Position numbers and translations under genes: made by a program
Notes under the pieces: model-generated
What the model was told of the DNA's origin: nothing
What the model saw: the letters and a program-made list of their open reading frames with translations, nothing else
Database searches by the model: none
From: a virus
Virus record (IMG/VR): IMGVR_UViG_3300030106_006480
Location: 10,143-74,142 of that record
Direction: 5' to 3' (one strand)
DNA: 64,000 nt
Shown: positions 7,766-24,895 of the stretch, piece by piece
Layout: every line of letters starts with the position of its first letter
Numbering within the stretch: the stretch's first letter is position 1

Positions 7766-8291
7766 TGGGAATAGTTTCGGTTTTTGTTTTAGTAGAAGAA
7801 GTAATAGGAGTACCTTCTAAGTCAAGACATTGTGTAGTAGTAGTTGTCGTTTTTACCATAGCGTATTTTATACGCTCGGCGTCAGACCAATCATCTACGA
7901 TTGTCTCTATTTCTAAAATGTCTTTGATAGGAGATACTGTGAACTCATAATCTTTACCAATAATTTTATTTTCTGGAGCATGACCACGACGATGCAGCTC
8001 TTTAAGAAGAGAACGCATTTGATTAATTTGTGATTGACAGTGTTTTACTGCATCATCAAGTTTTTTCTTTTCTTGCTTGCCGACTTCAAGCATGGATTCA
8101 TATTTAGTTATTTGATAGTGAATTGCATCAATCTTTCTAGATTTGAGCCTGGAACAAGTTTCCAGCTCAGCAAGTGCAATTTCCCTGGTGTCAGGAGTAA
8201 GGAAAGACAGACTGCTCGATAAGGCAGCATAGTGCGAATACAAGTCAAGTGTATTCATGCTATCGAGGTTGAGATGTGTGGCTTGATTCAT
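7629..8291 (-). CDS. Siphovirus Gp157-like protein
   Basis: N-terminal coiled coil with KIDAI; C-terminal LPEGVRF; lies in the recombination/replication module. Confidence 0.6.
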   Translation of the reverse strand: MNQATHLNLDSMNTLDLYSHYAALSSSLSFLTPDTREIALAELETCSRLKSRKIDAIHYQITKYESMLEVGKQEKKKLDDAVKHCQSQINQMRSLLKELHRRGHAPENKIIGKDYEFTVSPIKDILEIETIVDDWSDAERIKYAMVKTTTTTTQCLDLEGTPITSSTKTKTETIPNVDALQSANENKEVLPEGVRFQSNYRITTKRLLNAKLDKETSNNS

Positions 8292-8435: not shown

Positions 8436-9365
8436 TCAGCGTCGGAACTGATCGAACAAGTGATTTAGATGTGGCATAGCTGTTACAGGATAGGGTACAT
8501 AGCCATTGTCAAGCATACGTTCAAATAGACCCCATACGTCATCTTCCGTAAACTTTTCAGTTGGTTGATAAAGCCGCCACTTATCAGCGGTAGCCATGTG
8601 TCCTTTGTCTGTATAGATGACAAGAAACCTTCCTTTATCTTGTAATGTTTTTGGAGGTGAATAAATCCAAGCAGTTGCTTTAGTAATTAAACTACCGCGA
8701 GAAGAAGAGATTAGCTCTGATCTCCGAGACAAAAGAGTACGATAACGTTTGACCCAAGCCTGGTGCTTGCAAGTTGGTTGATAATCACCTAGCTCAGCAG
8801 AAAACTGATCAAGATGTTTGAGTTGTCCTTGGAAAGAACCACAACTGCAATAAGGTTTAGCTGGTTCGTTATCAATTATTTGTTCAGTCTCACTAAAGAT
8901 ATTGAACTTAGGCTTTTCAGGAATCAAACCATCTGGAGAAATTAAATAACCAATATCATAATCTTTAAGAAATTGTTCTATTTGTTCTTGAGTTTGAATG
9001 AAAGAAAGTCTATCAACAAATTTATTCTGCATTTGAGCAGCACTAGTGTTCTTCGAACCACGATAAGCATAGTTGTGTCCTTTGAATATCACATAAGCAT
9101 TGTTTTTCCATAAAGACAATCCACGATTATCAGGACCCATGTAAGCAAAGAAGTTTGGAAACCTGCCTGTAAAATCTTTGTACTGTTGTTTGACGGGAGC
9201 AATAGGATAGTTTTGTTTGGTCCCATCGTTTCTGACAATAATTAGTTCAGATTCTTTAGCATAAATACCAGCAATGTCTCCATCATCAAAGTCAGAGAAA
9301 GTTCTTTTAATGTTTGATCTTGAATAGATTAATTGCTGAGCAAAGTTGAAATCATTGTTAGACAT
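8436..9365 (-). CDS. SWIM zinc-finger protein
   Basis: YCSCGSF...PTCKHQ (CxC...CxH). Confidence 0.7.
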   Translation of the reverse strand: MSNNDFNFAQQLIYSRSNIKRTFSDFDDGDIAGIYAKESELIIVRNDGTKQNYPIAPVKQQYKDFTGRFPNFFAYMGPDNRGLSLWKNNAYVIFKGHNYAYRGSKNTSAAQMQNKFVDRLSFIQTQEQIEQFLKDYDIGYLISPDGLIPEKPKFNIFSETEQIIDNEPAKPYCSCGSFQGQLKHLDQFSAELGDYQPTCKHQAWVKRYRTLLSRRSELISSSRGSLITKATAWIYSPPKTLQDKGRFLVIYTDKGHMATADKWRLYQPTEKFTEDDVWGLFERMLDNGYVPYPVTAMPHLNHLFDQFRR

Positions 9366-10793: not shown

Positions 10794-10821
10794 TAGGCAG
10801 TTTTACGTCATACCCAGGACG
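10794..10821 (-). ncRNA. Family A pseudoknot element, copy 1
   Basis: minus: CGTC-CTGGGTAT-GACG-TAAAAC-TGCCTA. Confidence 0.7.
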
Positions 10822-11694: not shown

Positions 11695-11724
11695 TGAAGC
11701 AGTTTAAGGTCATACTTCAGGACC
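11695..11724 (-). ncRNA. Family A pseudoknot element, copy 2 (5' leader of ssb)
   Basis: minus: GGTC-CTGAAGTAT-GACC-TTAAAC-TGCTTCA. Confidence 0.75.
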
Positions 11725-11729
11725 GTCAA

Positions 11730-13541
11730 TCAATGAACATCAAACCAAGTTTTACCAACTTTGGCATCACCTTCAATTGGACAAAGGAAGTTAAAATGTT
11801 CACCTGATTGAATAAAAGCTTTAAGAATATTTTCTTTTACAATTTCAATGTTTTGTTTAGGACAAGAAAGTTCTATTTCATCATGGATCATTGCATGTTG
11901 ATGATAATCAATACCGTAAACAAGACCAGCTTCTATTAAATTGTTATGAGTATTGATAACAACTTGCTTCATTAAAACAGCACCAGCAGCTTGGAGTAAT
12001 ACGTTTAGTGCTTTGAAATCAGAACGACAAAACAATGGACGTTTATCTAAACCAATTAAAAAGCCACGAGCCTGTAATGTTTTGGCAAGTGTATCTTTCA
12101 ATGCTTTAATAGCAGGAATACCAGTCATAAAAGAATCAATTGCATTTTTACCAAGTTGTTTTAACTTGTTTATATCTTTCTCATTTGGATCAACAATAGT
12201 ACCTGCCTTAGCTGATCCACAACCATAAAGAACTGCATAAAGCAAACGCTTACTAATATCTCTAGTTTTTACACCAAACTTTTCTTGGTTATAAATATGA
12301 ATGTCAGTGTCATCATCAATAACTAACTTGCTGTATTCACCTTCATCCCAATACGCAAGATACCCAGCCAAACATCTAAGTTCGAGAGCTTTTGCATCGC
12401 TGCCAATAAGGAACCAGTCGTCAGGAGCATGGAAAAGAGAACGACATTCTTTCCCATAAGGACTATAAGCTGCCGGAGTTTGGGCAGTGTTCGGATTACG
12501 ATGTGAGCAACGGCCAGTAATACAACCATTAGTAATAACGTCCCCATGTATATAACCATCAGGAGAGACAAGCTTGAGCCAAGCGTTGGTACCACTTTGA
12601 ATTTGGCCTAAACGTTTTTTAATTAACATGTATTCTGCCAAAGGCTGAGCTTCTGGATATGGAAGATTTTCTAAAACATCGTCATTCAAGATTGGATTAC
12701 CTTTCTCAGTTAGTTTCTCAGGAGTCCAATTATATTTATCTTTAAATCTTTGAATAATATGAGCACGAGAGTTTGGATTAAAAACTGTAACAGAATCTTT
12801 TAAACGTTTACCTGTACGTTCTGACCAACGTTCTTCAACAATTGGAGGAAAGATTTCTTTTAATTTATCTTCGATTTGCTTGCTGCGTACTGATAATTTA
12901 TCCACAAGAGACAAAGCTGCATCAGTATCAAAAGGAAAACCTGATCGAATTTGTCTCTCAATACATGTAGCAAATTCATGTTCAAGCGCAAGCGATTCCG
13001 AGTGGATAGATTGTTGTTGAATAAGTTGTAATAATTTTGTCGTAACGTTGACATCTTGAATGCAATAGGCAAGCATTTCTTCTGAAAATTCAGAGAAATC
13101 TTGGAAGTCAATCTTCTTATCTGAGAGTCTATAGCCCCATGCTTTGAGGCTAGCTGAACCTCTAAGTTTATTTGGGAGACGGTAGTATATCTCACTGTCC
13201 AGTTCTTCAAGTTTTTCTTTGGGCCAAATGAGTCTGGTGCAGATGAGTGTGTCAATGATTTGTAAAGCAGGGGAATTAAATAATTCAAAGCCAGGCCAAA
13301 GTTTCTTTAGCACTGGAATGTCATAAAACAAAATGTTATGTCCAATCAAACAATCAGCGGCAGCCAAATGATCAAGAGCATCAGTAATGCGATCAGGCCC
13401 ATAGCTAAAAGTTTGTTTTCTATTGAAGTCATATATGACGATACAGAAAATTTCTGTAACTTCATCATATAATCCATTTGATTCAATATCAAATACGAAC
13501 CAGTTTTCATGTTTGGTACCGGGCTTCAGGTTGAACATCAA
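11730..13541 (-). CDS. polA: Family A DNA polymerase (T7-like, with 3'-5' exonuclease)
   Basis: Exo motifs FDIESNG, GHNILFYD, YCIQDV; motif A DAKALELR; motif B RDISKRLLYAVLYG; motif C IHDE. Confidence 0.97.
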   Translation of the reverse strand: MMFNLKPGTKHENWFVFDIESNGLYDEVTEIFCIVIYDFNRKQTFSYGPDRITDALDHLAAADCLIGHNILFYDIPVLKKLWPGFELFNSPALQIIDTLICTRLIWPKEKLEELDSEIYYRLPNKLRGSASLKAWGYRLSDKKIDFQDFSEFSEEMLAYCIQDVNVTTKLLQLIQQQSIHSESLALEHEFATCIERQIRSGFPFDTDAALSLVDKLSVRSKQIEDKLKEIFPPIVEERWSERTGKRLKDSVTVFNPNSRAHIIQRFKDKYNWTPEKLTEKGNPILNDDVLENLPYPEAQPLAEYMLIKKRLGQIQSGTNAWLKLVSPDGYIHGDVITNGCITGRCSHRNPNTAQTPAAYSPYGKECRSLFHAPDDWFLIGSDAKALELRCLAGYLAYWDEGEYSKLVIDDDTDIHIYNQEKFGVKTRDISKRLLYAVLYGCGSAKAGTIVDPNEKDINKLKQLGKNAIDSFMTGIPAIKALKDTLAKTLQARGFLIGLDKRPLFCRSDFKALNVLLQAAGAVLMKQVVINTHNNLIEAGLVYGIDYHQHAMIHDEIELSCPKQNIEIVKENILKAFIQSGEHFNFLCPIEGDAKVGKTWFDVH

Positions 13542-13737: not shown

Positions 13738-13785
13738 TTGAAATAATTAAGGGACGAAATAAGATTATCTCGTCCCAGAAAAAAG

Positions 13786-14547
13786 TCAAGCTTTTTGTCT
13801 ATGCATTTTGTTGTATCCATTGATTCCATTTTTCTTGAGGACAGAAACAGCTTTGCTTGCTGAACTGCCTGCACGCTGAACACCATGAATCAATAAAGCA
13901 AAGGGTTTATCACCAAAACAATGGGAATCATCATGATCTATTTCTAGACCAAGTTGATCTGCTTCTTCTTGTGAATAAACTACTTGAGCAGTGCGCTTGA
14001 AAACATCTGGATTTTCTGTAACCAAATGATCTAACTCACCACCAAGAGAAGCAGTAAGATAAAGATTAGAAGGCAAGTGATCCTTATAATGAAGCCAATA
14101 ATTAAGCGACTTTGTATAGGCATAGAATTTAATTTCGGGAAAGACACCAGCAGTTAGAATCCATGAACGAAAGTAAGCATCGCTAAACATATCACCTGCT
14201 TCATGGATCCGAAACAATTCGTAATTACGATGAGACTGTCTGATTGAATCCATGACAAGCATAGAAATTAGCAGAGCATCTTCACCGCATTGTTTTGTAA
14301 TAGCTTCGTAGTTATGCCAACGCAATTGACGGCATTGTGGAGACCGAGCTTCAGACATTGCAGCAAAACAACGGTAATCAATTTGATCACCTTTTGGTTT
14401 GTCTAAAATCTTACCTGTCTCACGATTAGCAAAAGTGCGACAGACACCAGCTCTTGGACAAGAATAGCCAGCTGGAATGGAAAAGATGAAACGATCATCT
14501 AGCTTTCCGTTGGAATAGGAAAACTTGAGAAGCTTTGTGAATTGCAT
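13786..14547 (-). CDS. Phage Gp88-like (Fe-S/radical-SAM-like) protein
   Basis: FSIPAGYSCP..GVC...CFA, RIHEAGD, FYAYTK, PSNL motifs. Confidence 0.7.
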   Translation of the reverse strand: MQFTKLLKFSYSNGKLDDRFIFSIPAGYSCPRAGVCRTFANRETGKILDKPKGDQIDYRCFAAMSEARSPQCRQLRWHNYEAITKQCGEDALLISMLVMDSIRQSHRNYELFRIHEAGDMFSDAYFRSWILTAGVFPEIKFYAYTKSLNYWLHYKDHLPSNLYLTASLGGELDHLVTENPDVFKRTAQVVYSQEEADQLGLEIDHDDSHCFGDKPFALLIHGVQRAGSSASKAVSVLKKNGINGYNKMHRQKA

Positions 14548-14571
14548 AGTGAAATGTAATAAAGTGAAATA

Positions 14572-14598
14572 CTGGGGCTTACACCAAAGGATGCCCAG
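14572..14598 (-). ncRNA. Family B hairpin element, copy 1
   Basis: minus: CTGGG-CAT-CCTTTGG-TGTAAGC-CCCAG. Confidence 0.65.
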
Positions 14599-14603
14599 GA
14601 ATT

Positions 14604-15002
14604 TTAAAGCTGGTGCTTTTCAAATTCAATATGGTTCAAGACTTGTTTTGCTTTCCAGACAGCAGCCTCACCAATAAAGAATTCAACGTTACAACCAAGA
14701 GCTTTAGATGCTGTTTTAATATCTTTCATTTGTTCGCCAGAAAACTTAAGTGTTTTTTGATGATTAAAAGTTGCTGATCTATCTGTAATAAAAGATCTAT
14801 TTTCTTCAATCCATTTATCTACTTCTTGTTTGTTATAGAAATGTTCTCTACGTGAACTAATTTCTAAATCAGGAGTTGGAAACGTATTATTTTTTACTTT
14901 CTTATATAGAGTGTAACGAGACATAAGAGTCTTACTTAAGACTTCTTTTGCTGAATAGCATTTGCTACGGCGTTCACGAAAAAGCTGAGCTTTAGATGGC
15001 AT
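14604..15002 (-). CDS. AlpA-like HTH regulator with C-terminal extension
   Basis: KEVLSKTLMSRYTLYKKVKNNTFP...EVDKWIE; start moved to MPSKAQ at 15002. Confidence 0.65.
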   Translation of the reverse strand: MPSKAQLFRERRSKCYSAKEVLSKTLMSRYTLYKKVKNNTFPTPDLEISSRREHFYNKQEVDKWIEENRSFITDRSATFNHQKTLKFSGEQMKDIKTASKALGCNVEFFIGEAAVWKAKQVLNHIEFEKHQL

Positions 15003-15040
15003 AGTTGATGAAAAGGAGAATGACTTGTAGAATAAAGGAA

Positions 15041-15092
15041 CGTTCACCTCAATGCGAGGCGCAATTCATCCGGCCAGGGAACGGGGACCGGA
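15041..15092 (+). promoter_or_regulatory. Glutamine riboswitch class II (Downstream-peptide motif)
   Basis: CGTTCA-CCTC.AATGC.GAGG-CGCA...TCCGG...GGAACGGGGA-CCGGA; P1 CGTTC/GAACG; pseudoknot TCCGG/CCGGA; TAGAAT -10 box at 15028-15033; YRG peptide downstream. Confidence 0.85.
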
Positions 15093-15110
15093 GTATTAGC
15101 GGAGGACACC

Positions 15111-15260
15111 ATGTCTAACGAGACACTCACTTATCGTGGCGTTAAGTATAAGCGCGGCGATATCATGACAACTTGGATGATGAACGAAAAACTGAAGCGT
15201 CAGCGTGAAGAGTTTGAAGCAAAGCTCGATCGTTTACGCCAAAAAGGAGAGATTGTTTAA
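15111..15260 (+). CDS. DUF4278-like YRG peptide (49 aa, absent from ORF track)
   Basis: MSNETLTYRGVKYKRG...; GGAGGA Shine-Dalgarno at 15101-15106. Confidence 0.85.
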   Translation: MSNETLTYRGVKYKRGDIMTTWMMNEKLKRQREEFEAKLDRLRQKGEIV

Positions 15261-15484
15261 GCCCAAGGCCAACCTAGTTCAACGTCTGCTTGCCAGATAT
15301 CTGGATCAATAGGACGCTGCTTTACATACAAATTAAATAGGCGTTGCATTTCTTCTAATGTGACGCCTACTTTTTTTGCTATAACAGCTATGTTGGTCTG
15401 GCCTTTGTAGACAAGATCAAGAGCATCTTCAAGCGATATGTTTCCATGTTTTCCGTTTGACAATGTCATGAATACAGCCTTCAC
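15257..15484 (-). CDS. Small HTH-like protein
   Basis: IAVIAKKVGVTLEEMQRLF. Confidence 0.5.
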   Translation of the reverse strand: MKAVFMTLSNGKHGNISLEDALDLVYKGQTNIAVIAKKVGVTLEEMQRLFNLYVKQRPIDPDIWQADVELGWPWA

Positions 15485-15791
15485 TTACACCATATATTTT
15501 ACTCAATTCTCTTTGAGCTTTTCCCTCTGCCCATTCACGTCTTATTTGAATTACATTTGAATCAAACAAGATTGCATTAGGATGCTTTTCACCTGTATTA
15601 AAACCTCCATGTTTTCGTTTAGGCGGAGGATTCCAGTGAACACCAGCATCATCTAATACTTCAGTGCTTCGCCAATGATGATTACATTTTAGACAACGAT
15701 AGTAACGTCTAGTCACATAGTCTCCTTGATGAGTGGACATAACTTTTGTCCCTGTTTTTGATTGTGCATAACATTTAGGACAATTCATCAA
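15429..15791 (-). CDS. NrdR-type Zn-ribbon plus HTH protein
   Basis: CPKC...RRYYRCLKCNHHWRSTE; GEKHPNAIL...LSKIYGVSEGCIHDIVKRKTWKH. Confidence 0.65.
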   Translation of the reverse strand: MMNCPKCYAQSKTGTKVMSTHQGDYVTRRYYRCLKCNHHWRSTEVLDDAGVHWNPPPKRKHGGFNTGEKHPNAILFDSNVIQIRREWAEGKAQRELSKIYGVSEGCIHDIVKRKTWKHIA

Positions 15792-16495
15792 TCTTTACTC
15801 CACATAGTTTCAGAAATAATTGGAAACTGTTCTTTAAAAATTGTTTTACATTGTTCTGCAATTTCTTTATGCTCTAGTTGCGTACCATTTCCTGTACGCA
15901 AGTCAATGTAATGCATCCAAGATTTTAAAGGGCCTGTCATATACATACGAGTAGGACAAGCAAGAGGCAGGATAGACCTGGCACATTCTTTGGCAACACC
16001 ATCGCTAACCATCTCTTGATAGAGATGTTCAGCATCTTCAAACAAAATACTAATGCGTCTGTAGTAATCAGTAAGTTTGCCTTTACCCAATCGACTTGGC
16101 AAATCATCAATTGAATTCTGACGATTTTTAAGATCTTGTCCTCTCAAGTGAGGAATAATTGGCTTACCCATCTCACCAGTATTTGCATAGCGTTGAGAGA
16201 ATTCTTGGAACGAGAATGTCCAGTGCCTTAGTATCTGAGGGCTGATGGCCCTGGTGGTATTGATCTCAAGGCACATAGATGCCATTTCAAAAGGAGACCA
16301 ATGCTTTTGTTTAATTAAATAACGGAGAAGCTTTGGAGCAGTCTCCATGTTGTCTTGATTCTTGGGAGCAGAAACGCGTGCCATATGGACAATCATTTCT
16401 TCAGCATTTGGAGTAGTCCAAATGAGTTTGACAGAAGGATTTTGAAAAGGCATTGATTGTTTATTTAGTTTGGATTGGGGCAAGCCGATGACCAA
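15788..16495 (-). CDS. thyX: FAD-dependent thymidylate synthase
   Basis: HWSPFE, QILRHWTFSFQEFSQRY, AKECARSILP, TQLEH; likely start MPFQN at 16453. Confidence 0.95.
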   Translation of the reverse strand: MVIGLPQSKLNKQSMPFQNPSVKLIWTTPNAEEMIVHMARVSAPKNQDNMETAPKLLRYLIKQKHWSPFEMASMCLEINTTRAISPQILRHWTFSFQEFSQRYANTGEMGKPIIPHLRGQDLKNRQNSIDDLPSRLGKGKLTDYYRRISILFEDAEHLYQEMVSDGVAKECARSILPLACPTRMYMTGPLKSWMHYIDLRTGNGTQLEHKEIAEQCKTIFKEQFPIISETMWSKD

Positions 16496-16742
16496 GATAA
16501 TCTTCTGTGCGTGAGGTGTAGTCCCATTGAACTACATAATGACAAAAGACTGCACCAGCACGGTTCTTTTTTTCTATAATGTTTTTAACCGTACCAACAC
16601 GGTCAAGTATTTTGTCTTTACCGTGATACACATTTCGATGTGTGACACGATCACCAATGGAAAATGCTTGAGATTTGCGTAGAGACATGATGAATAAAAA
16701 AATCCTCAGCCAGCGCAAACCAACTGAGGATGAATCGTCCAA
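16461..16742 (-). CDS. Small SH3-like hypothetical protein
   Basis: FSIGDRV...GTV...YVVQWD; likely start MSLRK. Confidence 0.5.
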   Translation of the reverse strand: MDDSSSVGLRWLRIFLFIMSLRKSQAFSIGDRVTHRNVYHGKDKILDRVGTVKNIIEKKNRAGAVFCHYVVQWDYTSRTEDYLGHRLAPIQTK

Positions 16743-16754
16743 GTAGATATTAGA

Positions 16755-17108
16755 TCAAGAAGCTGCGATGTCAATTGCAGAGAGATCAACTCCTGCTTTT
16801 TCCATCTTGCTTAACATTTCAACCATGATGTTTGCATTCTCCTGGGTCTTAGCCATGAAAGCTTTAGAACGTTCAGCACTCATTGTGTGAACAGTCCCAT
16901 TGGCTTCCTTGTATGCCCAGGAGCCATCAGGTTGCATCTCCCCTTGGGTAATAGCCATACGCTCGCTGTTGCGGGTATAGCGAACCTGTAGGTTACGAAC
17001 ATCTGTTAAACCATCTTGATCAACCCAGGTAAGACCAAGGTTGTAAAGATTGTTGTCATCCATATAGCCATGAGGCTGAGGGATGAGGTGCTTGATTGCT
17101 CCAAACAT
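16755..17108 (-). CDS. Hypothetical protein
   Basis: Start moved to MFGAIK because the longer ORF overlaps the tRNA. Confidence 0.65.
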   Translation of the reverse strand: MFGAIKHLIPQPHGYMDDNNLYNLGLTWVDQDGLTDVRNLQVRYTRNSERMAITQGEMQPDGSWAYKEANGTVHTMSAERSKAFMAKTQENANIMVEMLSKMEKAGVDLSAIDIAAS

Positions 17109-17132
17109 GATGAAATGAAATGTGATTAGGTT

Positions 17133-17221
17133 TGGTGAGAGTGGTGGGACTTGAACCCACATAGCCATTACTGACCGACAGATTTTAAGTCTGTTGCGTC
17201 TACCAATTCCGCCACACTCTC
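17133..17221 (-). tRNA. tRNA-Leu(TAA), CCA encoded
   Basis: GAGAGTG/CACTCTC acceptor stem, GGAATTGGTAGAC D-arm, ACAGA-CTTAAAA-TCTGT anticodon arm, long variable arm, GGGTTCAAGTCCC T-arm, ACCA end. Confidence 0.95.
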
Positions 17222-17225
17222 GTTG

Positions 17226-17262
17226 CTAGGACTTACACCGTGTCAAGGGACCGGATGCCTAG
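17226..17262 (-). ncRNA. Family B hairpin element, copy 2 (4 nt upstream of the tRNA)
   Basis: minus: CTAGG-CAT-CCGGTCCCTTGACACGG-TGTAAGT-CCTAG. Confidence 0.7.
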
Positions 17263-17268
17263 TCGTAT

Positions 17269-19068
17269 TTAGGTTAGTTGTTCTTCTCTTTTTATCAACG
17301 CAACTTTGAATGCGTCTTCAACATTGGAACGTTCGAGATCACTGAGTCTTTTGTTGCCAATATCACCGATTTGATTAACAGTCATGACACCATTATTAAC
17401 AAAGAGTTGAATGGTGTAACGAGGCTGCCCATCAATCATGGTCAGAATGATGAGTTGTCTCATCTTCTTGATATCATCTGCATAACCATGACCAGCACCA
17501 ACACAGTTGCGGACGGCTCGACCCCAAGCTGCTAGCTGGTGTGTGTCATAAGGCTGTAAGAAGCTATACTTAACATCTTCACCGTCATTGCATTGCTCAA
17601 CTTTGATGGGTTGAGGAAATAGCTTCTGAGGCAAGTTAACGTTAGCGTTGCTGATCTTCCATGTCTCTGCCATGAGATGATCGTGCCATTCCATTAAACG
17701 CCAGCGCTTGGGCTTGATGTTGTCAGTACGATCAGTAGTAATGCATTGGCAAAGCATGTCATAAGTATCACGCCAATCTGTCATGTAGACATGGCGCTGT
17801 CCTGTAGCAGCGTCAGCACTTAGAAGGTAACCTCCGCATTCACTTCTTTGTTGGTCAAGTTCTGACTGTTGCTTGTACTTTTGATAGAGCATGTTGAGAA
17901 ATGATTCAACAGGCAAGTTTTCTTGCATCCACTGAAAACCAGTTCTGTTGTGAGAGTTAATTAGTACTATTTTAGAGAGCCAATCAAACCTGGAATGAAG
18001 TAGATTGTGATCAATGTCACGATAAACTTCTTTGATTTCATTGACAGATGATAAGAACTGATAAAGAATTCCATAGGGTGGTTTAAGTGCTTCACGATCA
18101 TACATATTTTGTGCAATATTATTTTCATGAATGACTTTGGTGTCATTCATTGCATTTAAAACTAAAGATCTAAACCACTTGGCAGATAGTACATCTTGCA
18201 TGTATTCACAACAGAAATGTTTACGCAATATATGGATAATATTGTCTACATCATGGACGTACATGGTCTCACTACCCATCCATCTAGGCCTGGACCAGTA
18301 CTTTGACATAATATTTTCAAACTTGTTGTTCTCAGGATCAAGCCGAGTAAAGATATCATCGCTTGATCCTCCTTTGAATTGAGGAATATCTTTGGCAAGT
18401 TGGTTTTCCCATTTTTGAACAGTGCGATAAACAGTCCAGGTCTTACCATAAGACTTGAGGTGATGCTCACTACGGTTGGGATCTTTCCAGTAGTTACCGG
18501 TATAGCCATCCATGATGTCATCTTTAGTCATCAGGATTGTTTTGCGATACCAATAACTGCGGCCATCTTTGATACGTGGAAGCATCATTGATTCATCATT
18601 TTGATTAAACATGCACTTACCAAGTGTGCGACGACTTGGGATGTATACATCAGTACATTGTTTACGAGCTGCTGCTGTATCTCGATACGCAATTGTCAAG
18701 CCATAGATGTATGAATCATCTTTTGACTGTAAAAGCTTGCTGCCATTCGGAGGCAGCCATGCAGCTACCCACAATTGGCGATGATAGTAGACAACAGCAA
18801 ATGGTTCAGGTTCCTGTCCAAAGACAGGCTTCGTAAATAAGTGAACTTTGTCTGGTGCTTTCTCTTTGTTGAGCTGTTCTACTGTTTGTTCCCACAAGTT
18901 GTCTTTAACGACGTGCTTGGGGAACATGTTTGAAGGACGACCACTGGGAAATGTTTTCCGCTTGTTCTTGTTACGATTTTCTGTAGCTATAGGGGCTGCA
19001 AGTTTCTTACGCGTTTGGTCATAGCCTGCAACTTCAAGTGCAAGCTGGTTAGGAAGATTGAAATGCAT
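17269..19068 (-). CDS. PcfJ-domain protein
   Basis: C-terminal WHDHL...LAAWGRAVRNCVG...Y...YTIQL...QI...N pattern. Confidence 0.7.
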   Translation of the reverse strand: MHFNLPNQLALEVAGYDQTRKKLAAPIATENRNKNKRKTFPSGRPSNMFPKHVVKDNLWEQTVEQLNKEKAPDKVHLFTKPVFGQEPEPFAVVYYHRQLWVAAWLPPNGSKLLQSKDDSYIYGLTIAYRDTAAARKQCTDVYIPSRRTLGKCMFNQNDESMMLPRIKDGRSYWYRKTILMTKDDIMDGYTGNYWKDPNRSEHHLKSYGKTWTVYRTVQKWENQLAKDIPQFKGGSSDDIFTRLDPENNKFENIMSKYWSRPRWMGSETMYVHDVDNIIHILRKHFCCEYMQDVLSAKWFRSLVLNAMNDTKVIHENNIAQNMYDREALKPPYGILYQFLSSVNEIKEVYRDIDHNLLHSRFDWLSKIVLINSHNRTGFQWMQENLPVESFLNMLYQKYKQQSELDQQRSECGGYLLSADAATGQRHVYMTDWRDTYDMLCQCITTDRTDNIKPKRWRLMEWHDHLMAETWKISNANVNLPQKLFPQPIKVEQCNDGEDVKYSFLQPYDTHQLAAWGRAVRNCVGAGHGYADDIKKMRQLIILTMIDGQPRYTIQLFVNNGVMTVNQIGDIGNKRLSDLERSNVEDAFKVALIKREEQLT

Positions 19069-19098
19069 GATTTAGTGTAGTGTGATGTGTTGTAAAAG

Positions 19099-19138
19099 AT
19101 TGGGACTTACATGCAGTCGGGGAAATGCAATGCCCAAT
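19099..19138 (-). ncRNA. Family B hairpin element, copy 3
   Basis: minus: ATTGGG-CAT-TGCA...TGCA-TGTAAGT-CCCAAT. Confidence 0.7.
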
Positions 19139-19141
19139 AGA

Positions 19142-19516
19142 TTAGAACTCGATGCAGTCTGGATCGTCTGCAACCCAATCAAGATCTAGTTGATCTAAGA
19201 ATTGAATTTGTTCTGGTTGAGAACCGTCGATAGGAGGTGGTAACTCTCCTTCTTCTAGTTCAAAACACGCACTACAGACTGCTGGACCATATTCAGCAGG
19301 ATGGGCAAAATCTGCTGGATGGTAAGTTGCAGGAATTGTTTGAACCATGTCAGCAATCTCGGCAACAGAGATCCAAGAAGATGTTCCATGTTCATCGACA
19401 AGATCAAGTTCAATAGAGCGGACATAAAGAATTTCAGTCATTAGAGTTGATGTTAAGGATTTGGACCGCCGCATTTGATAATGCTTCGGCTTGGTCAAAA
19501 TACTTGTTCCACTCAT
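19142..19516 (-). CDS. Acidic hypothetical protein (likely start MTEILY)
   Basis: ORF with HPAEYGPAVC motif. Confidence 0.6.
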   Translation of the reverse strand: MSGTSILTKPKHYQMRRSKSLTSTLMTEILYVRSIELDLVDEHGTSSWISVAEIADMVQTIPATYHPADFAHPAEYGPAVCSACFELEEGELPPPIDGSQPEQIQFLDQLDLDWVADDPDCIEF

Positions 19517-19635
19517 TAGAACCGATTGGGTACTGTTGTGCCTCAGTTCTTTTGGTATCTGCTATACCTGATACAGTTTGATAAGCAACCATCAAAGTTT
19601 GGTGATCCATAGTGAAGTGTAGTGTGATGTGGACA

Positions 19636-19663
19636 TAGACAGTTTAAGGTCTTATCTAGGACC
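19636..19663 (-). ncRNA. Family A pseudoknot element, copy 3
   Basis: minus: GGTC-CTAGATAA-GACC-TTAAAC-TGTCTA; minus-strand TATAAT just upstream. Confidence 0.7.
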
Positions 19664-19763
19664 ATGTAAGGGTATTAATTATAAGTATTATTGATTAGTA
19701 GATGTCCCCCCTTGGTAGCCCCCTGGGGGGTGCAGGGGGGGTACCCATTGAGATATTCCATAT

Positions 19764-20132
19764 TTAGATGTGTTCTGGTTTTAGATTAAACTTTTGAATT
19801 GCATCATCCGTTGCTTCTTGATCGCCATCGAGGACGACCAGTCCGCGTATACGATTGGATGCTGCATGCCAAATATAACTAGTGCAGTCATATCGCTCAG
19901 TATCTTTCCCATCAACTACAACAGTGATGGGATACTGTCCAGTCTCGATCTTAGGAGGGATTGTCTTGTCATTAGTAATGATACTGATTAGATCAAACCC
20001 TGCCTTGTCATGGATCTCTCCATGTAGATAGATACCGTCCAGGCCGTAGAAAAGCTCTCCGTCTTTTAAGTGTTTACGATTGAGGGTACCAAAACCTTCT
20101 GCATACCAAGTGGGTTTCATTAGTCTGACCAC
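19764..20132 (-). CDS. Hypothetical protein
   Basis: Early-region ORF. Confidence 0.55.
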   Translation of the reverse strand: MVRLMKPTWYAEGFGTLNRKHLKDGELFYGLDGIYLHGEIHDKAGFDLISIITNDKTIPPKIETGQYPITVVVDGKDTERYDCTSYIWHAASNRIRGLVVLDGDQEATDDAIQKFNLKPEHI

Positions 20133-20410
20133 ATGTCAGGTTTCTTATTGTATTCAGGAAGATCTGGTGTTTCTTCTGGTTTCAAGTCAGGAGGACTGAG
20201 CTTTGGAAGATCACAGATTTTAATGTTGCGTTTGCTGAGGCCGGTTCCGGGGATCCCCACAGATCCACGGATGCCGGACTCTCTTGCATTTAGAGTGAGC
20301 TGGAACGGACCAAGTTTGAATGACTTGGAGAATGATTGTGGGCCACGTTCTGTGAAGTTGATGCCTGCAATCGTCTTGTCAAAGTTGATTGCGCTGCGTT
20401 TGCGTGTCAT
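20120..20410 (-). CDS. DUF4236-like protein
   Basis: SKSFKLGPFQLTLN...GSVGIPGTGLS. Confidence 0.6.
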   Translation of the reverse strand: MTRKRSAINFDKTIAGINFTERGPQSFSKSFKLGPFQLTLNARESGIRGSVGIPGTGLSKRNIKICDLPKLSPPDLKPEETPDLPEYNKKPDMWSD

Positions 20411-20428
20411 GATTTTGAATTGAAATGA

Positions 20429-20632
20429 TTAGTAAGTGATCCTGTAGTGTGTATATCCTGCAGGACGTTTCCGAAGTTTCTCGAATAAAGCTTCAGCTTC
20501 TTTACGAGTATCAAATGAACCATGGTATTTGTAGTGACTATCTATCCAACACTTTTGAATACCGTTAGCTCTTGCTACATAGGATTCTTTAATCAAATAC
20601 TCTTCAACTTTGAAATGTTTGAGGTCTGTCAT
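20429..20632 (-). CDS. Hypothetical early protein
   Basis: ATGA-coupled small ORF chain. Confidence 0.55.
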   Translation of the reverse strand: MTDLKHFKVEEYLIKESYVARANGIQKCWIDSHYKYHGSFDTRKEAEALFEKLRKRPAGYTHYRITY

Positions 20633-20820
20633 GATTCAAGATCCTCTTTGAAGATAAATCCTTTAGCTCTAGCTTTATCTTTAATCTTCTTATCTTGTAT
20701 ATCTTTACCGTGCATATAGCTTTCGACTGATTGTCCAGGTTTTGGGCCTCTTGTTGGAAGTTTAGTAACTTTGTATTCAGTTGCAGGAACCCAGCTTTGT
20801 TTAGATCGTTTGCGTGTCAT
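20629..20820 (-). CDS. Basic hypothetical early protein
   Basis: Coupled ORF; shares MTRKRS N-terminus with 20120..20410. Confidence 0.55.
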   Translation of the reverse strand: MTRKRSKQSWVPATEYKVTKLPTRGPKPGQSVESYMHGKDIQDKKIKDKARAKGFIFKEDLES

Positions 20821-21032
20821 GATGAAGCGTTTGGATAGAGTTGATTGTAGATTGAAACTGTATTGCGATGGAGTGAGTTAACTCGCATAAAGTTAGCTTC
20901 AAGCCATTCGTGTAATGCAATTTCAATAACTCGGGATTCTTCAACCCCGAGTATGTCTGACAACAGTTCAATCATTTGCTGATCGATCTGTGTGATTGGG
21001 GTTACCTTGTAGTTTGATGGGTCAGTCATCAA
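20817..21032 (-). CDS. Hypothetical (ribbon-helix-helix-like) protein
   Basis: Coupled ORF; LSDILGVEESRVIEIALHEWL. Confidence 0.5.
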   Translation of the reverse strand: MMTDPSNYKVTPITQIDQQMIELLSDILGVEESRVIEIALHEWLEANFMRVNSLHRNTVSIYNQLYPNASS

Positions 21033-21219
21033 GAATTTGCTCTGCTAGTTGTTGCATTTTTGTCTCTGCATCTTTCCACTTGTTCAAGTAATACTGCTCT
21101 TCCTCTGGTGTATCAGAGTTGAGCATCATTGCATGGTAAGTGGTGCATTGACGAAATTGTTTTGTGAAGGGATCTTCACCCCACGGCTCTGGTTGCTCCA
21201 GAAGAATTGAAGATGACAC
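21022..21219 (-). CDS. Hypothetical early protein
   Basis: Coupled ORF. Confidence 0.5.
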   Translation of the reverse strand: MSSSILLEQPEPWGEDPFTKQFRQCTTYHAMMLNSDTPEEEQYYLNKWKDAETKMQQLAEQILDD

Positions 21220-21388
21220 GATTCTTTTGAGTGTAGATACGAATGTGTTTTAGGACAGTAGAGTCACTGATGCCATACTTCATTGCTATTTCTTTAGCTG
21301 ATAAGCCTACGAAATAGTATTGATAAGCAGCTTCAGCGATCTCTTCAGGCAGCATGGAGTAACCTCCTTTGATGTACTTTCTGGGCAT
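21176..21388 (-). CDS. HTH DNA-binding protein (sigma region 4-like)
   Basis: YYFVGLSAKEIAMKYGISDSTVLKHIR. Confidence 0.65.
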   Translation of the reverse strand: MPRKYIKGGYSMLPEEIAEAAYQYYFVGLSAKEIAMKYGISDSTVLKHIRIYTQKNRVIFNSSGATRAVG

Positions 21389-21394
21389 TGAGTC

Positions 21395-21601
21395 TTAGCT
21401 GTCGTGTGAAGGAAGTTCAGGGAAGTTAGGATCATCAGGATCCATATTGGTTTTGTAATGGACTGAACCATCTGGTGAGACAAAGCCAGCCATGTACTTA
21501 CCACCTGCATTCTCAGCTATTTCAGCAAATTTTGCGGTGAGCCTCATGAACTGAAGTTTTTGAGAATCAGGAACATTCTCTGGAGTGATGTCTTTAGACA
21601 T
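21395..21601 (-). CDS. Hypothetical early protein
   Basis: ORF in operon. Confidence 0.55.
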   Translation of the reverse strand: MSKDITPENVPDSQKLQFMRLTAKFAEIAENAGGKYMAGFVSPDGSVHYKTNMDPDDPNFPELPSHDS

Positions 21602-21646
21602 GATGAATTAATAAGCAATGATAAGTTTTACTAATGTGTTAATGAG

Positions 21647-21916
21647 TTAAGACCAGTAGTCTTTTCTGCATCTGAATTGAAGCATCTCGTAAGTCCAGCT
21701 GCTTCCTTCAAAGTCAACAATGGTTTTCATTGCTGCTTGAACTGCAGACCAGTCTTCTGGACGTGAGGGGCATACAGACATGTACTGCACACAAGCAGCG
21801 TCAAGTTTGTTCCATGCTTCTTTCCAAGCATCATCATCAAACTCGGGTTCTGTTGGCATCTCACGGCCCTTCTCTTCAAAGTAAGGACCAAAGATGTCTT
21901 TGATTGTTTCAAGCAT
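21647..21916 (-). CDS. Hypothetical early protein
   Basis: ORF downstream of a family B element. Confidence 0.6.
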   Translation of the reverse strand: MLETIKDIFGPYFEEKGREMPTEPEFDDDAWKEAWNKLDAACVQYMSVCPSRPEDWSAVQAAMKTIVDFEGSSWTYEMLQFRCRKDYWS

Positions 21917-21941
21917 AGATTTTGGTGTAGTAAAGGAAAAG

Positions 21942-21972
21942 TACTAGGACTTACGCTGTAAGCTGCCTAGTA
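21942..21972 (-). ncRNA. Family B hairpin element, copy 4
   Basis: minus: TACTAGG-CA-GCTTACAGC-GTAAGT-CCTAGTA. Confidence 0.7.
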
Positions 21973-21986
21973 GTTGTGTTACTTAA

Positions 21987-22358
21987 TCAACAGTAATAAA
22001 CAGGTTCAGTGGGATAATGCCTGGCATAGTCATCACCAAACGTGATATCAATAGCAGTTAATCCTCTGCTGTCGCTAATCAAAGGTTGGTCTTGGTAGTC
22101 GTATCCAATTGAGAGACGGATTGCTTCTTTGATTGCTTGCTTCTTACTGAAGACAAAGATCGTGTTAAGCGGTTCGCCTTCTTCGTACCACCATCCACCT
22201 TCTTCTGGCCCACCATATTTTTGCCAAGTGTTGTGGACTTGGATGGTGATTGGATCTTGGTTGTCGAACTCTTTGTACCAGTTGTAGATGTTGATCCAGT
22301 ACCTTGCGTATCCTGTTTTGGGATACTGTTTGGTGTAGGTTTTGAGTGAATTAGACAT
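21987..22358 (-). CDS. Conserved phage early protein (YGGPEEGGWWY motif)
   Basis: YGGPEEGGWWYEEG motif; P..YYC C-terminus. Confidence 0.7.
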   Translation of the reverse strand: MSNSLKTYTKQYPKTGYARYWINIYNWYKEFDNQDPITIQVHNTWQKYGGPEEGGWWYEEGEPLNTIFVFSKKQAIKEAIRLSIGYDYQDQPLISDSRGLTAIDITFGDDYARHYPTEPVYYC

Positions 22359-22443
22359 CTGAAGTTGTTGTAAAGAACTGTACAGATAACAGTAATGATT
22401 ACAATGATGTGCAAGATGACATCATCGTTATTGTTGTCATGCA

Positions 22444-22638
22444 TTAGTTAGTTCCTCCATATTCTTTGTGATAGTCATCTTCGCCTGATACCGCTTCAGA
22501 CATAAGTTCTTGCATAAGTTGTTCTTGCTCATTAGCTATGTCGTTAAGGACAAATAACTGATCAGCAGTGTATTCAGACTTCTCCTGGTCATCGAAGTTG
22601 TCTTGTTGCTCATGGAGCCAAGTTTTGATAAGTGACAT
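22444..22638 (-). CDS. Acidic hypothetical early protein
   Basis: ORF downstream of a family A element. Confidence 0.55.
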   Translation of the reverse strand: MSLIKTWLHEQQDNFDDQEKSEYTADQLFVLNDIANEQEQLMQELMSEAVSGEDDYHKEYGGTN

Positions 22639-22663: not shown

Positions 22664-22691
22664 TGAGCAGTTTAAGGACATGCTCAGGTCC
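22664..22691 (-). ncRNA. Family A pseudoknot element, copy 4
   Basis: minus: GGAC-CTGAGCAT-GTCC-TTAAAC-TGCTCA. Confidence 0.75.
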
Positions 22692-23928: not shown

Positions 23929-23995
23929 ATGCCACGGGATTGTGGCAATAACTGCCGGAGGGTTTGCACCTCCGGACCCGCTTTAACGGATCAGT
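23929..23995 (-). ncRNA. Family C tRNA-like element, copy 1
   Basis: minus: ACTGA-T-CCGTTAAAGCGG-GT-CCGGAGG-TGCAAAC-CCTCCGG-CAGTTAT-TGCCAC...GTGGCA. Confidence 0.7.
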
Positions 23996-24203
23996 CTTTA
24001 TCAGAGAAATAACCGACTGCTATGCCAATGGCACCGCAAATCACAAATGTAATGGGATGAGTGGTCATAAACTCCCACTGCCAGTGATAGAACATACGCA
24101 CAGGAGGTAGCGTAAGATACATTGCAAAAGCTAGTAAACAACCAAGGACTGCACCAACTAAAGTTGCACCCAAGGTAGACAGCTTTTCAAATGAAGTGAA
24201 CAT
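23991..24203 (-). CDS. Small two-TM membrane protein
   Basis: Two hydrophobic helices. Confidence 0.55.
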   Translation of the reverse strand: MFTSFEKLSTLGATLVGAVLGCLLAFAMYLTLPPVRMFYHWQWEFMTTHPITFVICGAIGIAVGYFSDKD

Positions 24204-24225
24204 AGTTTAGTGTTTGAAACAATAG

Positions 24226-24290
24226 ATGCCACTTGATTGTGGCAATAGTTGAGTAGGGGATTCGATCCCCCGGCATCACGCCTGGTCAGA
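24226..24290 (-). ncRNA. Family C tRNA-like element, copy 2
   Basis: minus: CTGA..GGCGTGATGCC-GGGGGA-TCGAA-TCCCC...CTAT-TGCCAC...GTGGCA. Confidence 0.6.
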
Positions 24291-24476
24291 TGACCATCTC
24301 AACTGGAGATTCCATCATCTCCACAAAGGAGAGAACAGATATCTCTGAGTAGCCACACTCTTCTGGGTGACCTTCGTAGTTATGTTCGACCGAAAGATCG
24401 AACGCAACCGAGTCGGCCTCCTCCTTAGAGAAGTGTGCGCTGTGTTGTTGACCGTTGAGGATGACGAAGAACACGT
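24286..24476 (-). CDS. Acidic hypothetical early protein
   Basis: Probable GTG start (VFFVIL) after GGAG; the longer ORF-track version runs through element C3. Confidence 0.5.
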
Positions 24477-24496
24477 CAGTCGCTCCGAGTGTGCGG

Positions 24497-24568
24497 TACC
24501 TATCTCCGCTGTAGGTAATAACTGGTGGGGGCATTGCACCCCCACTGGCCGCTTGAACGGACTCAGTT
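24497..24568 (-). ncRNA. Family C tRNA-like element, copy 3
   Basis: minus: AACTG-AGT-CCGTTCAAGCGG-CCA-GTGGGGG-TGCAATG-CCCCCAC-CAGTT-AT-TACCTA...TAGGTA. Confidence 0.7.
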
Positions 24569-24866: not shown

Positions 24867-24895
24867 GCTACGGTTTAACGTCCATCAGCTAGACG
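24867..24895 (-). ncRNA. Family A pseudoknot element, copy 5 (divergent)
   Basis: minus: CGTC-TAGCTGATG-GACG-TTAAAC-CGTAGC. Confidence 0.55.

What the first reader, a model, noticed from the sequence alone, without database searches (positions are those of the whole stretch)
14572..21972. Family B: GG-CA(T)-[variable hairpin]-GTAAG(T/C)-CC elements, one abutting the tRNA 5' end
Seen at 14572-14598, 17226-17262, 19099-19138 and 21942-21972. The outer stem covaries (CTGGG/CCCAG, CTAGG/CCTAG, TTGGG/CCCAA). The apical hairpin is free in length and sequence. The asymmetric internal loop CA(T)/GTAAG is invariant. Copy 2 ends 4 nt before the tRNA-Leu 5' end, so the element is not only a translation signal. 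Inference: a protein-binding or cleavage module, possibly catalytic. I do not recognise it as a named family.
Basis: partly seen in the sequence, partly recalled or inferred. Interest (0 to 1): 0.75.

Follow-up and report, generated by a model that had tools for sequence, protein, structure and literature searches.

The report
Cyanophage RNA boundary hairpin motif
A small hairpin with a fixed internal loop recurs on the coding strand of this marine cyanophage and hundreds of relatives, always just after a stop codon and just before a tRNA, a guide-RNA array or the next gene's leader, so it most likely marks or protects RNA ends, by a mechanism not yet known.

Summary
The window is 64 kb of a 74-kb S-EIV1-like cyanophage. 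It holds exactly four copies, all on the minus (sense) strand.

**Consensus:** 5'-CUNGG-C-R-[variable hairpin]-R-UAAG-Y-CCN'AG.

**Spread:** a covariance model finds 203 copies in 65 related viral loci, all on the gene strand. One exact variant occurs in 91 further viral stretches. No Rfam family matches, and I found no host copies.

**Structure:** covariation supports the outer and inner helices. The loop letters C and UAAG are invariant.

**Position:**
- It starts a median of 7 nt after the upstream stop codon and never overlaps it.
- It ends about 29 nt before the next ATG.
- It ends 3-4 nt before a tRNA in 50 of 60 tRNA contexts.
- In 12 other contigs it ends 0-1 nt before YNNGG tandem arrays that look like VIPR guide RNAs.

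A covarying pseudoknot (Family A) fills the same slot before orthologous genes, which argues that the element acts as RNA.

**Best reading (about 0.5):** a factor-recognised boundary hairpin that sets or protects transcript ends.

**Less likely:**
- a hairpin promoter
- a translation operator
- a ribozyme

The scan noted the same motif earlier in another genome.

The parts
14572..14598 (-). Family B copy 1. Outer stem CUGGG/CCCAG, loop CA / GUAAGC, minimal apical hairpin. It lies 24 nt upstream of the ATG of the GP88-like gene.
   Evidence: (40.3 bits)
17226..17262 (-). Family B copy 2. Outer stem CUAGG/CCUAG. It ends 4 nt before the 5' end of tRNA-Leu(UAA) and starts shortly after the stop of the 599-aa gene.
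   Evidence: 33.6 bits; not in the training set
19099..19138 (-). Family B copy 3. Outer stem AUUGGG/CCCAAU. It lies 30 nt upstream of the ATG of the 599-aa PcfJ-like gene.
   Evidence: 25.7 bits; not in the training set
21942..21972 (-). Family B copy 4. Seven-pair outer stem UACUAGG/CCUAGUA. It lies 25 nt upstream of the ATG of an 89-aa ORF.
   Evidence: (37.5 bits)
17133..17221 (-). tRNA-Leu(UAA), abutted by copy 2. It is itself followed by a G-less leader of about 24 nt and the ATG of a 137-aa ORF (16755-17168).
   Evidence: 63 bits, RF00005
14548..14571 (-). G-poor, Shine-Dalgarno-less leader between copy 1 and its ATG. Equivalent leaders lie at 19069-19098 and 21917-21941.
   Evidence: G at 2-10% across leader positions 2-24 in 99 copies
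13786..14547 (-). GP88-like gene (PF17338) downstream of copy 1. Orthologues in 9 other loci are also preceded by the element.
17269..19068 (-). 599-aa PcfJ-like gene flanked by copies 3 and 2. It was used as the marker to fetch relatives.
21647..21916 (-). 89-aa ORF downstream of copy 4, with no family match.

Best explanation
Family B is a cis-acting RNA element on the long sense transcript of the early/replication arm. It folds into a hairpin with three parts:
- a covarying outer stem of 5-8 pairs
- a fixed asymmetric internal loop, C-R on the 5' strand and R-UAAG-Y on the 3' strand; the loop may contain a C-G and an R-U pair with bulged AA
- an apical stem-loop that is free in length and sequence

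The fixed loop is most likely the recognition surface for a trans-acting factor. The factor is probably a host endoribonuclease or RNA-binding protein, because the motif occurs in several unrelated phage types.

The element marks the border between a translated cistron and the next functional RNA. Cutting at or next to it, or blocking exonucleases at it, would do two things. It would leave the upstream message with a protective 3' hairpin. It would also give the downstream RNA (tRNA, guide-RNA array, or an unstructured leader of about 25 nt plus ORF) a defined 5' end.

Shown here: the fold, the strand, the positions, the conservation and the interchange with a pseudoknot.
Inferred: action at RNA level, the factor, and the cut or protection.
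For: 1. Structure:
- 89.5% of cells are paired.
- The covariation score is 0.380, against 0.107 in shuffles (0 of 500 reach it) and at most 0.10 for slid partners.
- Pair 3 reads GC 68, UA 19, AU 14, GU 2, with none unpaired (independent count).

2. Strand:
- 203 of 203 model hits lie on the gene strand.
- The plain pattern gives 199 on the gene strand and 13 on the other.
- Sense folds are more stable than antisense folds in 97 cases against 49 (p = 7e-5).
- Sense folds hold 114 G-U pairs against 72 in antisense folds.

3. Position:
- The element starts a median of 7 nt after the upstream stop, at least 2 nt, and never overlaps the ORF.
- It ends a median of 29 nt before the ATG.
- It ends 3-6 nt before the tRNA in 50 of 60 distinct tRNA contexts, including a tRNA-Asn in a 109-kb contig.
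- It ends 0-1 nt before YNNGG tandem arrays in 12 distinct contigs.

4. Interchange:
- Before the orthologous 599-aa gene, most relatives carry the covarying Family A pseudoknot: 25 of 56 by an automatic test, and about 44 when I read the other regions by eye. Six carry Family B. The spacing of about 28 nt is the same.
- ssb is led by Family A here and by Family B in the 80%-identical relative L005.
- A pseudoknot can only act as RNA.

5. Before tRNAs that lack the element, a GC hairpin with a U tract sits in the same place. This fits a role as an end-protecting hairpin.

6. There is no sigma-70-like -10 box at a fixed distance upstream.

7. No T7-like RNA polymerase was detected in the genome.
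Against: - No RNA data exist for this phage: no RNA run was listed. No cut, RNA end or bound factor has been seen.
- In guide-RNA-like arrays only the first unit carries the element. That fits a promoter or an mRNA/ncRNA border better than a general guide-processing signal.
- The sense-strand bias in G-U pairs is modest, and the copies are phylogenetically related.
- No candidate partner protein was found in the phage.
- The motif was not found in the host genomes I tested, so no host precedent points to the enzyme.
- The helices are short, and single-sequence folding energies barely beat shuffles.
Confidence: 0.5

Rival explanations
1. Hairpin-type promoter for a middle gene class. The DNA extrudes the hairpin, as at phage N4 early promoters, and an unknown polymerase or factor starts transcription a few nt downstream. 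tRNAs and guide arrays would then start at their mature 5' ends, and mRNAs would have leaders of about 25 nt.
For: - The spacing to tRNA (3-4 nt) and to YNNGG arrays (0-1 nt) is fixed.
- Only the first unit of an array carries the element.
- Copies cluster in a 5-10 kb sub-region of complete genomes.
- All sequence information lies inside the element.
- With the hairpin removed, copy 3 reads ATTGGGCA...GTAAG. This resembles the Syn5 polymerase promoter ATTGGGCACCCGTAA followed by G at +1 (PMC3950665).
Against: - No T7-like polymerase was detected (its control did not ring, so this is weak).
- There is no giant N4-type ORF.
- The 599-aa protein shows no polymerase fold.
- A covarying RNA pseudoknot fills the same slot with the same spacing.
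- The G-U bias favours the sense strand.
- In L008 and L011 a terminator-like hairpin lies between the element and the tRNA.
- The gap between the two conserved halves varies from 9 to more than 60 nt, which rules out a duplex promoter.
Confidence: 0.13
2. Translation-linked element: an operator for a repressor, or a folded domain that docks on the 30S platform as a standby site and loads ribosomes onto the Shine-Dalgarno-less, G-poor leader.
For: - Families A, B and C and the real tRNA all sit 20-30 nt upstream of an ATG, before a G-depleted leader.
- The layout recalls the pseudoknot plus unstructured leader of T4 gene 32 (my own knowledge).
Against: About a quarter of the copies precede a tRNA or a guide-RNA-like array, where nothing is translated. 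This reading can therefore cover only part of the family.
Confidence: 0.15
3. Small self-cleaving ribozyme that cuts at its 3' base. It would be a functional analogue of the hammerhead ribozymes interspersed in some VIPR arrays.
For: - The loop nucleotides are invariant, and the element abuts the 5' ends of mature RNAs.
- Hammerheads do this job in other VIPR arrays (preprint 10.64898/2026.04.26.720920).
Against: - The minimal form is 28 nt with about 10 fixed letters and no conserved flank. This is smaller than any natural self-cleaving class that I know of.
- No ribozyme model matches at E up to 10.
Confidence: 0.03
4. Processive antitermination site of the nut/put type, which modifies the host RNA polymerase as it transcribes the arm.
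For: - Several copies lie along one long transcription unit, all in sense orientation.
- Terminator-like hairpins occur in the arm, at 16702-16731 and 13751-13776.
Against: - The precise abutment to tRNA and guide arrays is not explained.
- No boxA-like partner motif is seen.
- No N-like protein was recognised.
Confidence: 0.05

Closest known systems
RNase III processing hairpins between phage T7 early genes (R0.3, R1.1 and others)
   Same: Both are intercistronic hairpins with an internal loop on a polycistronic phage transcript. In T7, after the cut the hairpin stays at the 3' end of the upstream message and stabilises it (my own knowledge). That layout and the proposed logic match Family B.
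   Different: T7 sites have about two turns of helix. Family B can be as small as 28 nt, with 5 + 3 pairs and a free apical length. Its loop sequence is unrelated. No cleavage has been shown.
REP / intercistronic stabiliser hairpins of bacterial operons
   Same: Both are repeated imperfect palindromes within operons that can protect upstream mRNA from 3' exonucleases. Both appear at non-orthologous sites.
   Different: Family B has one strict orientation, a fixed non-palindromic loop, and exact abutment to tRNA and guide-RNA starts. No RAYT-type transposase is known for it.
CRISPR repeat hairpins cut by Cas6, or by RNase E in Synechocystis CRISPR3
   Same: In both, a hairpin borders a guide RNA. 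The cut at the base of the hairpin would define the guide's 5' end.
   Different: Family B precedes only the first unit of an array. It also precedes tRNAs and ordinary genes in phages that have no array.
Phage N4 virion-polymerase hairpin promoters, and the Syn5 polymerase promoter
   Same: Family B is a hairpin at a short fixed distance from RNA starts. The letters GGGCA and GTAAG are shared with the Syn5 promoter (PMC3950665).
   Different: N4 hairpins have 5-7 pairs and a 3-nt loop, and they need a giant virion polymerase. Syn5's promoter is 15 contiguous bp and needs a T7-like polymerase. Neither polymerase was found here.
Family A pseudoknot and Family C tRNA-like elements of the same phage arm
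   Same: They occupy the same slot: after a stop codon and 20-30 nt before an ATG with a G-poor leader. Families A and B replace each other before orthologous genes.
   Different: The folds are different. Only Family B was seen abutting tRNAs and guide-RNA-like arrays.

Membership tests
Any Rfam 15 family | A match to a curated covariance model | tested here: not met
   cmscan of 14000-22500 at E up to 10 finds only the tRNA, a glutamine-II riboswitch and noise. Nothing lies on the four copies.
T7-type RNase III processing site | About 20 bp of near-continuous double helix | tested here: not met
   The minimal copies are 28 nt, with a 5-pair outer and a 3-pair inner helix.
T7-type RNase III processing site | Intercistronic position on a polycistronic transcript | tested here: met
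   The element starts a median of 7 nt after a stop and ends 29 nt before the next ATG, on the sense strand only.
T7-type RNase III processing site | Cleavage by RNase III | not testable with these tools
   This needs an enzyme assay or end mapping.
N4-type hairpin promoter | Short 5-7 bp stem with a 3-nt loop that carries the specific contacts | tested here: not met
   The apical loop and stem are free in length and sequence. The conserved letters sit in an internal loop.
N4-type hairpin promoter | Cognate virion RNA polymerase gene in the genome | tested here: inconclusive
   The largest ORFs are 872 and 868 aa. PF00940 gave no hit, but its control did not ring. The 872-aa protein has no Pfam or PHROG hit and shows no Asp-rich motif such as DxDxD. 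It was not folded.
Syn5 / T7-like promoter | Contiguous duplex promoter of fixed length | tested here: not met
   The two conserved halves are 9-24 nt apart in the window and its closest relatives (L002/L003), and up to more than 60 nt elsewhere.
Kink-turn | A 3-nt bulge followed by tandem sheared G-A / A-G pairs | tested here: not met
   The loop strands are C-R and R-UAAG-Y. There is no GA on both strands. This is judged by sequence only.
Intrinsic terminator | A GC-rich hairpin followed by a U tract | tested here: not met
   U reaches only about 47% at positions +2 to +4, and there is no U run. The terminator scan lists none of the four copies.
Hammerhead or other self-cleaving ribozymes | A match to the class consensus, and self-cleavage | tested here: inconclusive
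   No model match was found. Self-cleavage cannot be tested with these tools.

The most novel reading that the evidence does not exclude
The 28-nt hairpin is a portable 'RNA start mark' used by several unrelated cyanophage lineages. A host enzyme, or the RNA itself, would cut precisely at its 3' base. That cut would create the 5' ends of tRNAs, VIPR guide-RNA arrays and short-leader mRNAs, and would leave the hairpin as a 3' cap on the upstream message. This would be a new sequence- and structure-specific processing signal, or in the extreme case the smallest natural self-cleaving motif.
Probability: 0.3. Interest if true: 0.8.

Novelty: new variant of a known kind. Interest (0 to 1): 0.62.

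Why it matters
How cyanophages without their own RNA polymerase organise expression of long gene arms is poorly known. This motif, with the pseudoknot and tRNA-like families beside it, suggests a punctuation system made of folded RNAs.

It is widespread: 203 copies in 65 related loci and 91 further stretches for a single exact variant. No catalogue lists it.

It links three kinds of product: tRNAs, VIPR-like guide arrays and Shine-Dalgarno-less mRNAs.

If a defined cut or block is shown, two things follow:
- It would give a compact, portable tool for setting RNA ends in cyanobacteria.
- It would give a handle on how VIPR guide arrays are matured in cyanophages.

The cultured phage S-EIV1 carries copies, so the question can be tested at the bench.

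Tried and rejected
- **Expression data:** no RNA holder was listed for this DNA. The runs that hold it are marine DNA metagenomes, so I did not use read laying.
- **Nucleotide search of phage records:** no match.
- **Host copies:**
  - An exact-variant scan of 185,579 prokaryote genomes gave 106 hits. I estimated about 200 by chance.
  - Many hits lie in one conserved Bacteroidota coding region, and none that I inspected has the outer stem.
  - Two cyanobacterial genomes hold fewer matches than the reversed-pattern control.
- **Sigma-70 promoter inside or before the element:**
  - There is no fixed -10 box upstream.
  - By my reading, GTAAGT and TAAGTC lack the key -11A or -7T.
- **Pseudoknot between GUAAG and the leader:** YTTAC is only mildly enriched (36 against 20 expected), so I dropped the idea.
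- **Hidden polymerase:**
  - The 599-aa protein was folded (pLDDT 81). It gave no Foldseek hit at E <= 0.001 (best 0.076) and only weak GNAT-like matches at its C-terminus (Z about 6).
  - The 872-aa protein has 31 homologues and no domain. It has a Gly-rich hydrophobic stretch and looks to me like a virion or ejection protein, so I did not fold it.
- **Partner protein:** Pfam on 20 small early ORFs gave only one weak sigma-region-4-like HTH, at 21176-21388.
- **PF00940 and PF07068 on other carrier contigs:** nothing rang, and neither did the controls, so these searches are uninformative.
- **Similarity to rRNA sites:** I recalled a likeness to the S8 site and helix 37 of 16S rRNA. This rests on memory only, was not tested, and is not claimed.
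Full report
**What the window is**

- The window is bases 10143-74142 of a 74,142-bp IMG/VR virus record that is about 98% complete.
- Its DNA polymerase is 61% identical to that of Synechococcus phage S-EIV1 (S-EIVl in the record). Its 599-aa protein finds only S-EIV1 and two Synechococcus jumbo phages.
- The DNA occurs in marine metagenomes.
- Genes from about 25,700 leftwards lie on the minus strand. They include small early ORFs, thyX, DNA polymerase, SSB and primase.
- Structural genes run rightwards from 25,768.
- The finding therefore lies on the coding strand of the early/replication arm.

**The observation**

- The pattern GGCA-N(4-34)-GTAAGYCC matches four times, all on the minus strand. 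Shuffles expect 0.15.
- The whole genome holds no further copy.
- Read on the sense strand, the copies are:

| Copy | Form |
|---|---|
| 1 | CUGGG-CA-[..]-GUAAGC-CCCAG |
| 2 | CUAGG-CA-[..]-GUAAGU-CCUAG |
| 3 | AUUGGG-CA-[..]-GUAAGU-CCCAAU |
| 4 | UACUAGG-CA-[..]-GUAAGU-CCUAGUA |

- Three copies lie 24-30 nt before an ATG. The genes are the GP88-like gene, the 599-aa PcfJ-like gene and an 89-aa ORF.
- One copy ends 4 nt before tRNA-Leu(UAA).
- Thermodynamic folding of single copies is unremarkable (z -0.65 to -2.4).

**Relatives**

- An alignment of the 599-aa protein fetched 65 S-EIV1-like viral loci.
- The plain pattern occurs 199 times on the gene strand and 13 times on the other strand. 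That gives 159 distinct copies.
- A covariance model built from 22 minimal 28-nt copies gave these results:
  - It finds exactly the four window copies in an unfiltered scan.
  - It finds 203 copies at E <= 0.01 in 1.33 Mb, every one on the gene-sense strand.
- Counts on the model alignment:

| Measure | Observed | Control |
|---|---|---|
| Cells paired | 89.5% | about 75% in shuffles |
| Covariation score | 0.380 | 0.107 in shuffles (0 of 500 reach it); at most 0.10 for slid partners |

- Outer pair 3 reads GC 68, UA 19, AU 14, GU 2, with no unpaired case. The two inner pairs also covary.
- The first inner position is usually U opposite U, but it is Watson-Crick whenever it differs from U-U.
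- Loop letters in 103 distinct copies:

| Position | Letters |
|---|---|
| 5' strand, first | C in 103 |
| 5' strand, second | A in 89, G in 11 |
| 3' strand, first | G in 98, A in 5 |
| 3' strand, UAAG | 103 of 103 |
| 3' strand, last | U in 96, C in 6 |

- Two independent natural variants change the C and the G of UAAG together, to U and A. They are L026/L054 and a second hairpin in L009.
  - This hints at a C-G pair inside the loop with a bulged AA. It is only suggestive.
- One exact variant of the motif occurs in 91 further viral stretches, so the family is large.
- No Rfam family matches.

**Position rules**

- The five-pair core starts a median of 7 nt after the stop of the upstream ORF. 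The mode is 3-4 nt and the minimum is 2 nt. It never overlaps the ORF.
- It ends a median of 29 nt before the next ATG, with an interquartile range of 25-31 nt.
- The intervening leader is strikingly poor in G (2-10%) and has no fixed motif.
- Of 60 distinct tRNA contexts in these phages, 50 have the element ending 3-6 nt before the tRNA 5' end. One of these is a tRNA-Asn in a 109-kb contig that lacks the 599-aa marker.
- Where the element is missing before a tRNA, most cases have a GC hairpin with a U tract abutting the tRNA instead.
  - In 12 distinct contigs the element follows a stop codon and then abuts a tandem array of YNNGG units.
  - The repeat phase starts 0-1 nt after the 3' arm.
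  - Such arrays are the hallmark of the recently described VIPR guide RNAs (preprint 10.64898/2026.04.26.720920).
  - Only the first unit of each array has the element.
- In complete relatives the copies cluster in a 5-10 kb part of one arm, as they do here.

**RNA or DNA**

Several results point to action as RNA.
- Before the orthologous 599-aa gene, most relatives carry the Family A element at the same spacing of about 28 nt. The count is 25 of 56 distinct upstream regions by an automatic test, and about 44 when I read the remaining regions by eye.
  - Family A is a compact pseudoknot with two covarying stems and a fixed UUAAAC linker.
  - Six relatives carry Family B in that slot.
- The ssb gene is led by Family A here and by Family B in an 80%-identical relative.
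- A pseudoknot has no plausible role as DNA. Two modules that replace each other in one slot most likely act at the same level.
- Sense-strand folds are more stable than antisense folds (97 against 49, p = 7e-5). They also hold more G-U pairs (114 against 72).
- The element never overlaps an ORF.
- No -10-like box sits at a fixed distance upstream.
- The real tRNA-Leu of the window is itself followed by a G-less leader of about 24 nt and an ATG.
- So a tRNA, the tRNA-like Family C, the Family A pseudoknot and the Family B hairpin all occupy the position 'folded RNA, short unstructured leader, start codon'.

**Best explanation and rivals**

- I read Family B as a boundary hairpin on a polycistronic transcript.
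  - Its fixed loop is a recognition surface for a factor. The factor is probably host-encoded, because the motif occurs in at least three kinds of viral genome.
  - Its role would be to set or protect RNA ends at the border between a translated cistron and the next RNA.
  - The cut, the protection and the factor are all inferred.
- The hairpin-promoter reading explains three things well: the fixed spacing to RNA starts, the use at the first array unit only, and the clustering.
  - Copy 3 also resembles the Syn5 promoter once the hairpin is removed.
  - Against it stand the interchange with a pseudoknot, the lack of any detected polymerase, and a terminator-like hairpin between element and tRNA in two relatives.
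- A purely translational role cannot cover the tRNA and array copies.
- A ribozyme is unlikely at 28 nt with no conserved flanks, but I could not test it.

**Novelty and verdict**

- The kind of element, an intercistronic hairpin that defines or protects RNA ends, is known from T7 RNase III sites, REP elements and CRISPR repeats.
- This motif fits none of those families on the features tested, and no catalogue lists it.
- It is a real, widespread, well-supported RNA motif with an unknown partner.
- The same motif was noted earlier by this scan in another genome. I reached the tRNA, leader and array associations here by my own counts.

Noticed in passing
window 15038-15093 (+), with ORF 15111-15260 (+): A glutamine-II riboswitch aptamer (RF01704, 54.2 bits against a cut-off of 33) sits before a 49-aa ORF. 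The unit is inserted antisense to the early arm.
   Followed up: partly
window 10794-10821, 11695-11724, 19636-19663, 22664-22691, 24867-24895 (-): Family A is a compact pseudoknot (stem 1, loop, UUAAAC linker, stem 2 pairing with the loop) 21-25 nt before ATGs. Across relatives both stems covary by eye. Family A replaces Family B before orthologous genes.
   Followed up: partly
window 23929-24568 (-): Three elements have T-arm-like GC hairpins (loops such as GGUGCAAUGCC and GGAUCGAAUCC). Each starts at an upstream stop codon, and the two whose 3' ends I examined stop 20-23 nt before the next ATG.
   Followed up: no
L176, L218, L233, L241, L245 and others: These contigs carry tandem YNNGG arrays with conserved hairpin tails, which look like VIPR guide RNAs. 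In the contigs I inspected the arrays lie downstream of an ORF ending in GDWRPKHGRF; it is 235 aa in the one case fully delimited. Two ORFs at this position (235 and 250 aa) had no Pfam match. Family B lies between the ORF and the first guide.
   Followed up: partly
L014-L069, about 11,900-12,100; window 17133-17221: The tRNAs with anticodon UAA come in two sizes among relatives. One is 86-89 nt with a long variable arm, as in the window. The other is 73-78 nt without it, which is unusual for a tRNA-Leu.
   Followed up: no
window 19690-19750: An odd G/C-run tract (runs of 6-8 C or G) lies in an intergenic gap of the early arm. It does not show the 5-nt YNNGG period.
   Followed up: no
window 16702-16731 (-) and 13751-13776 (-): Strong terminator-like hairpins lie inside the early arm. 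The first has a U tract; the second is followed by a T-rich tail (UUAAUUAUUU). The first follows the tRNA and the 137-aa ORF unit.
   Followed up: no
window 21176-21388 (-): A 70-aa ORF has a weak sigma-70 region 4 / LuxR-type helix-turn-helix (E 2e-4 to 3e-3, below the cut-offs). It lies in the block that follows copy 4.
   Followed up: no
window 17269-19068 (-): The 599-aa PcfJ-like protein is conserved across S-EIV1-like phages. The AlphaFold model has pLDDT 81. No solved fold matches clearly, and only a weak GNAT-like C-terminal domain appears (Z about 6).
   Followed up: partly
L026 about 11,960-12,000, L054 about 8,940-8,980, L009 about 8,070-8,105: Variant hairpins change the invariant loop C and the G of UAAG together, to U and A. 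This suggests that these two letters pair.
   Followed up: partly
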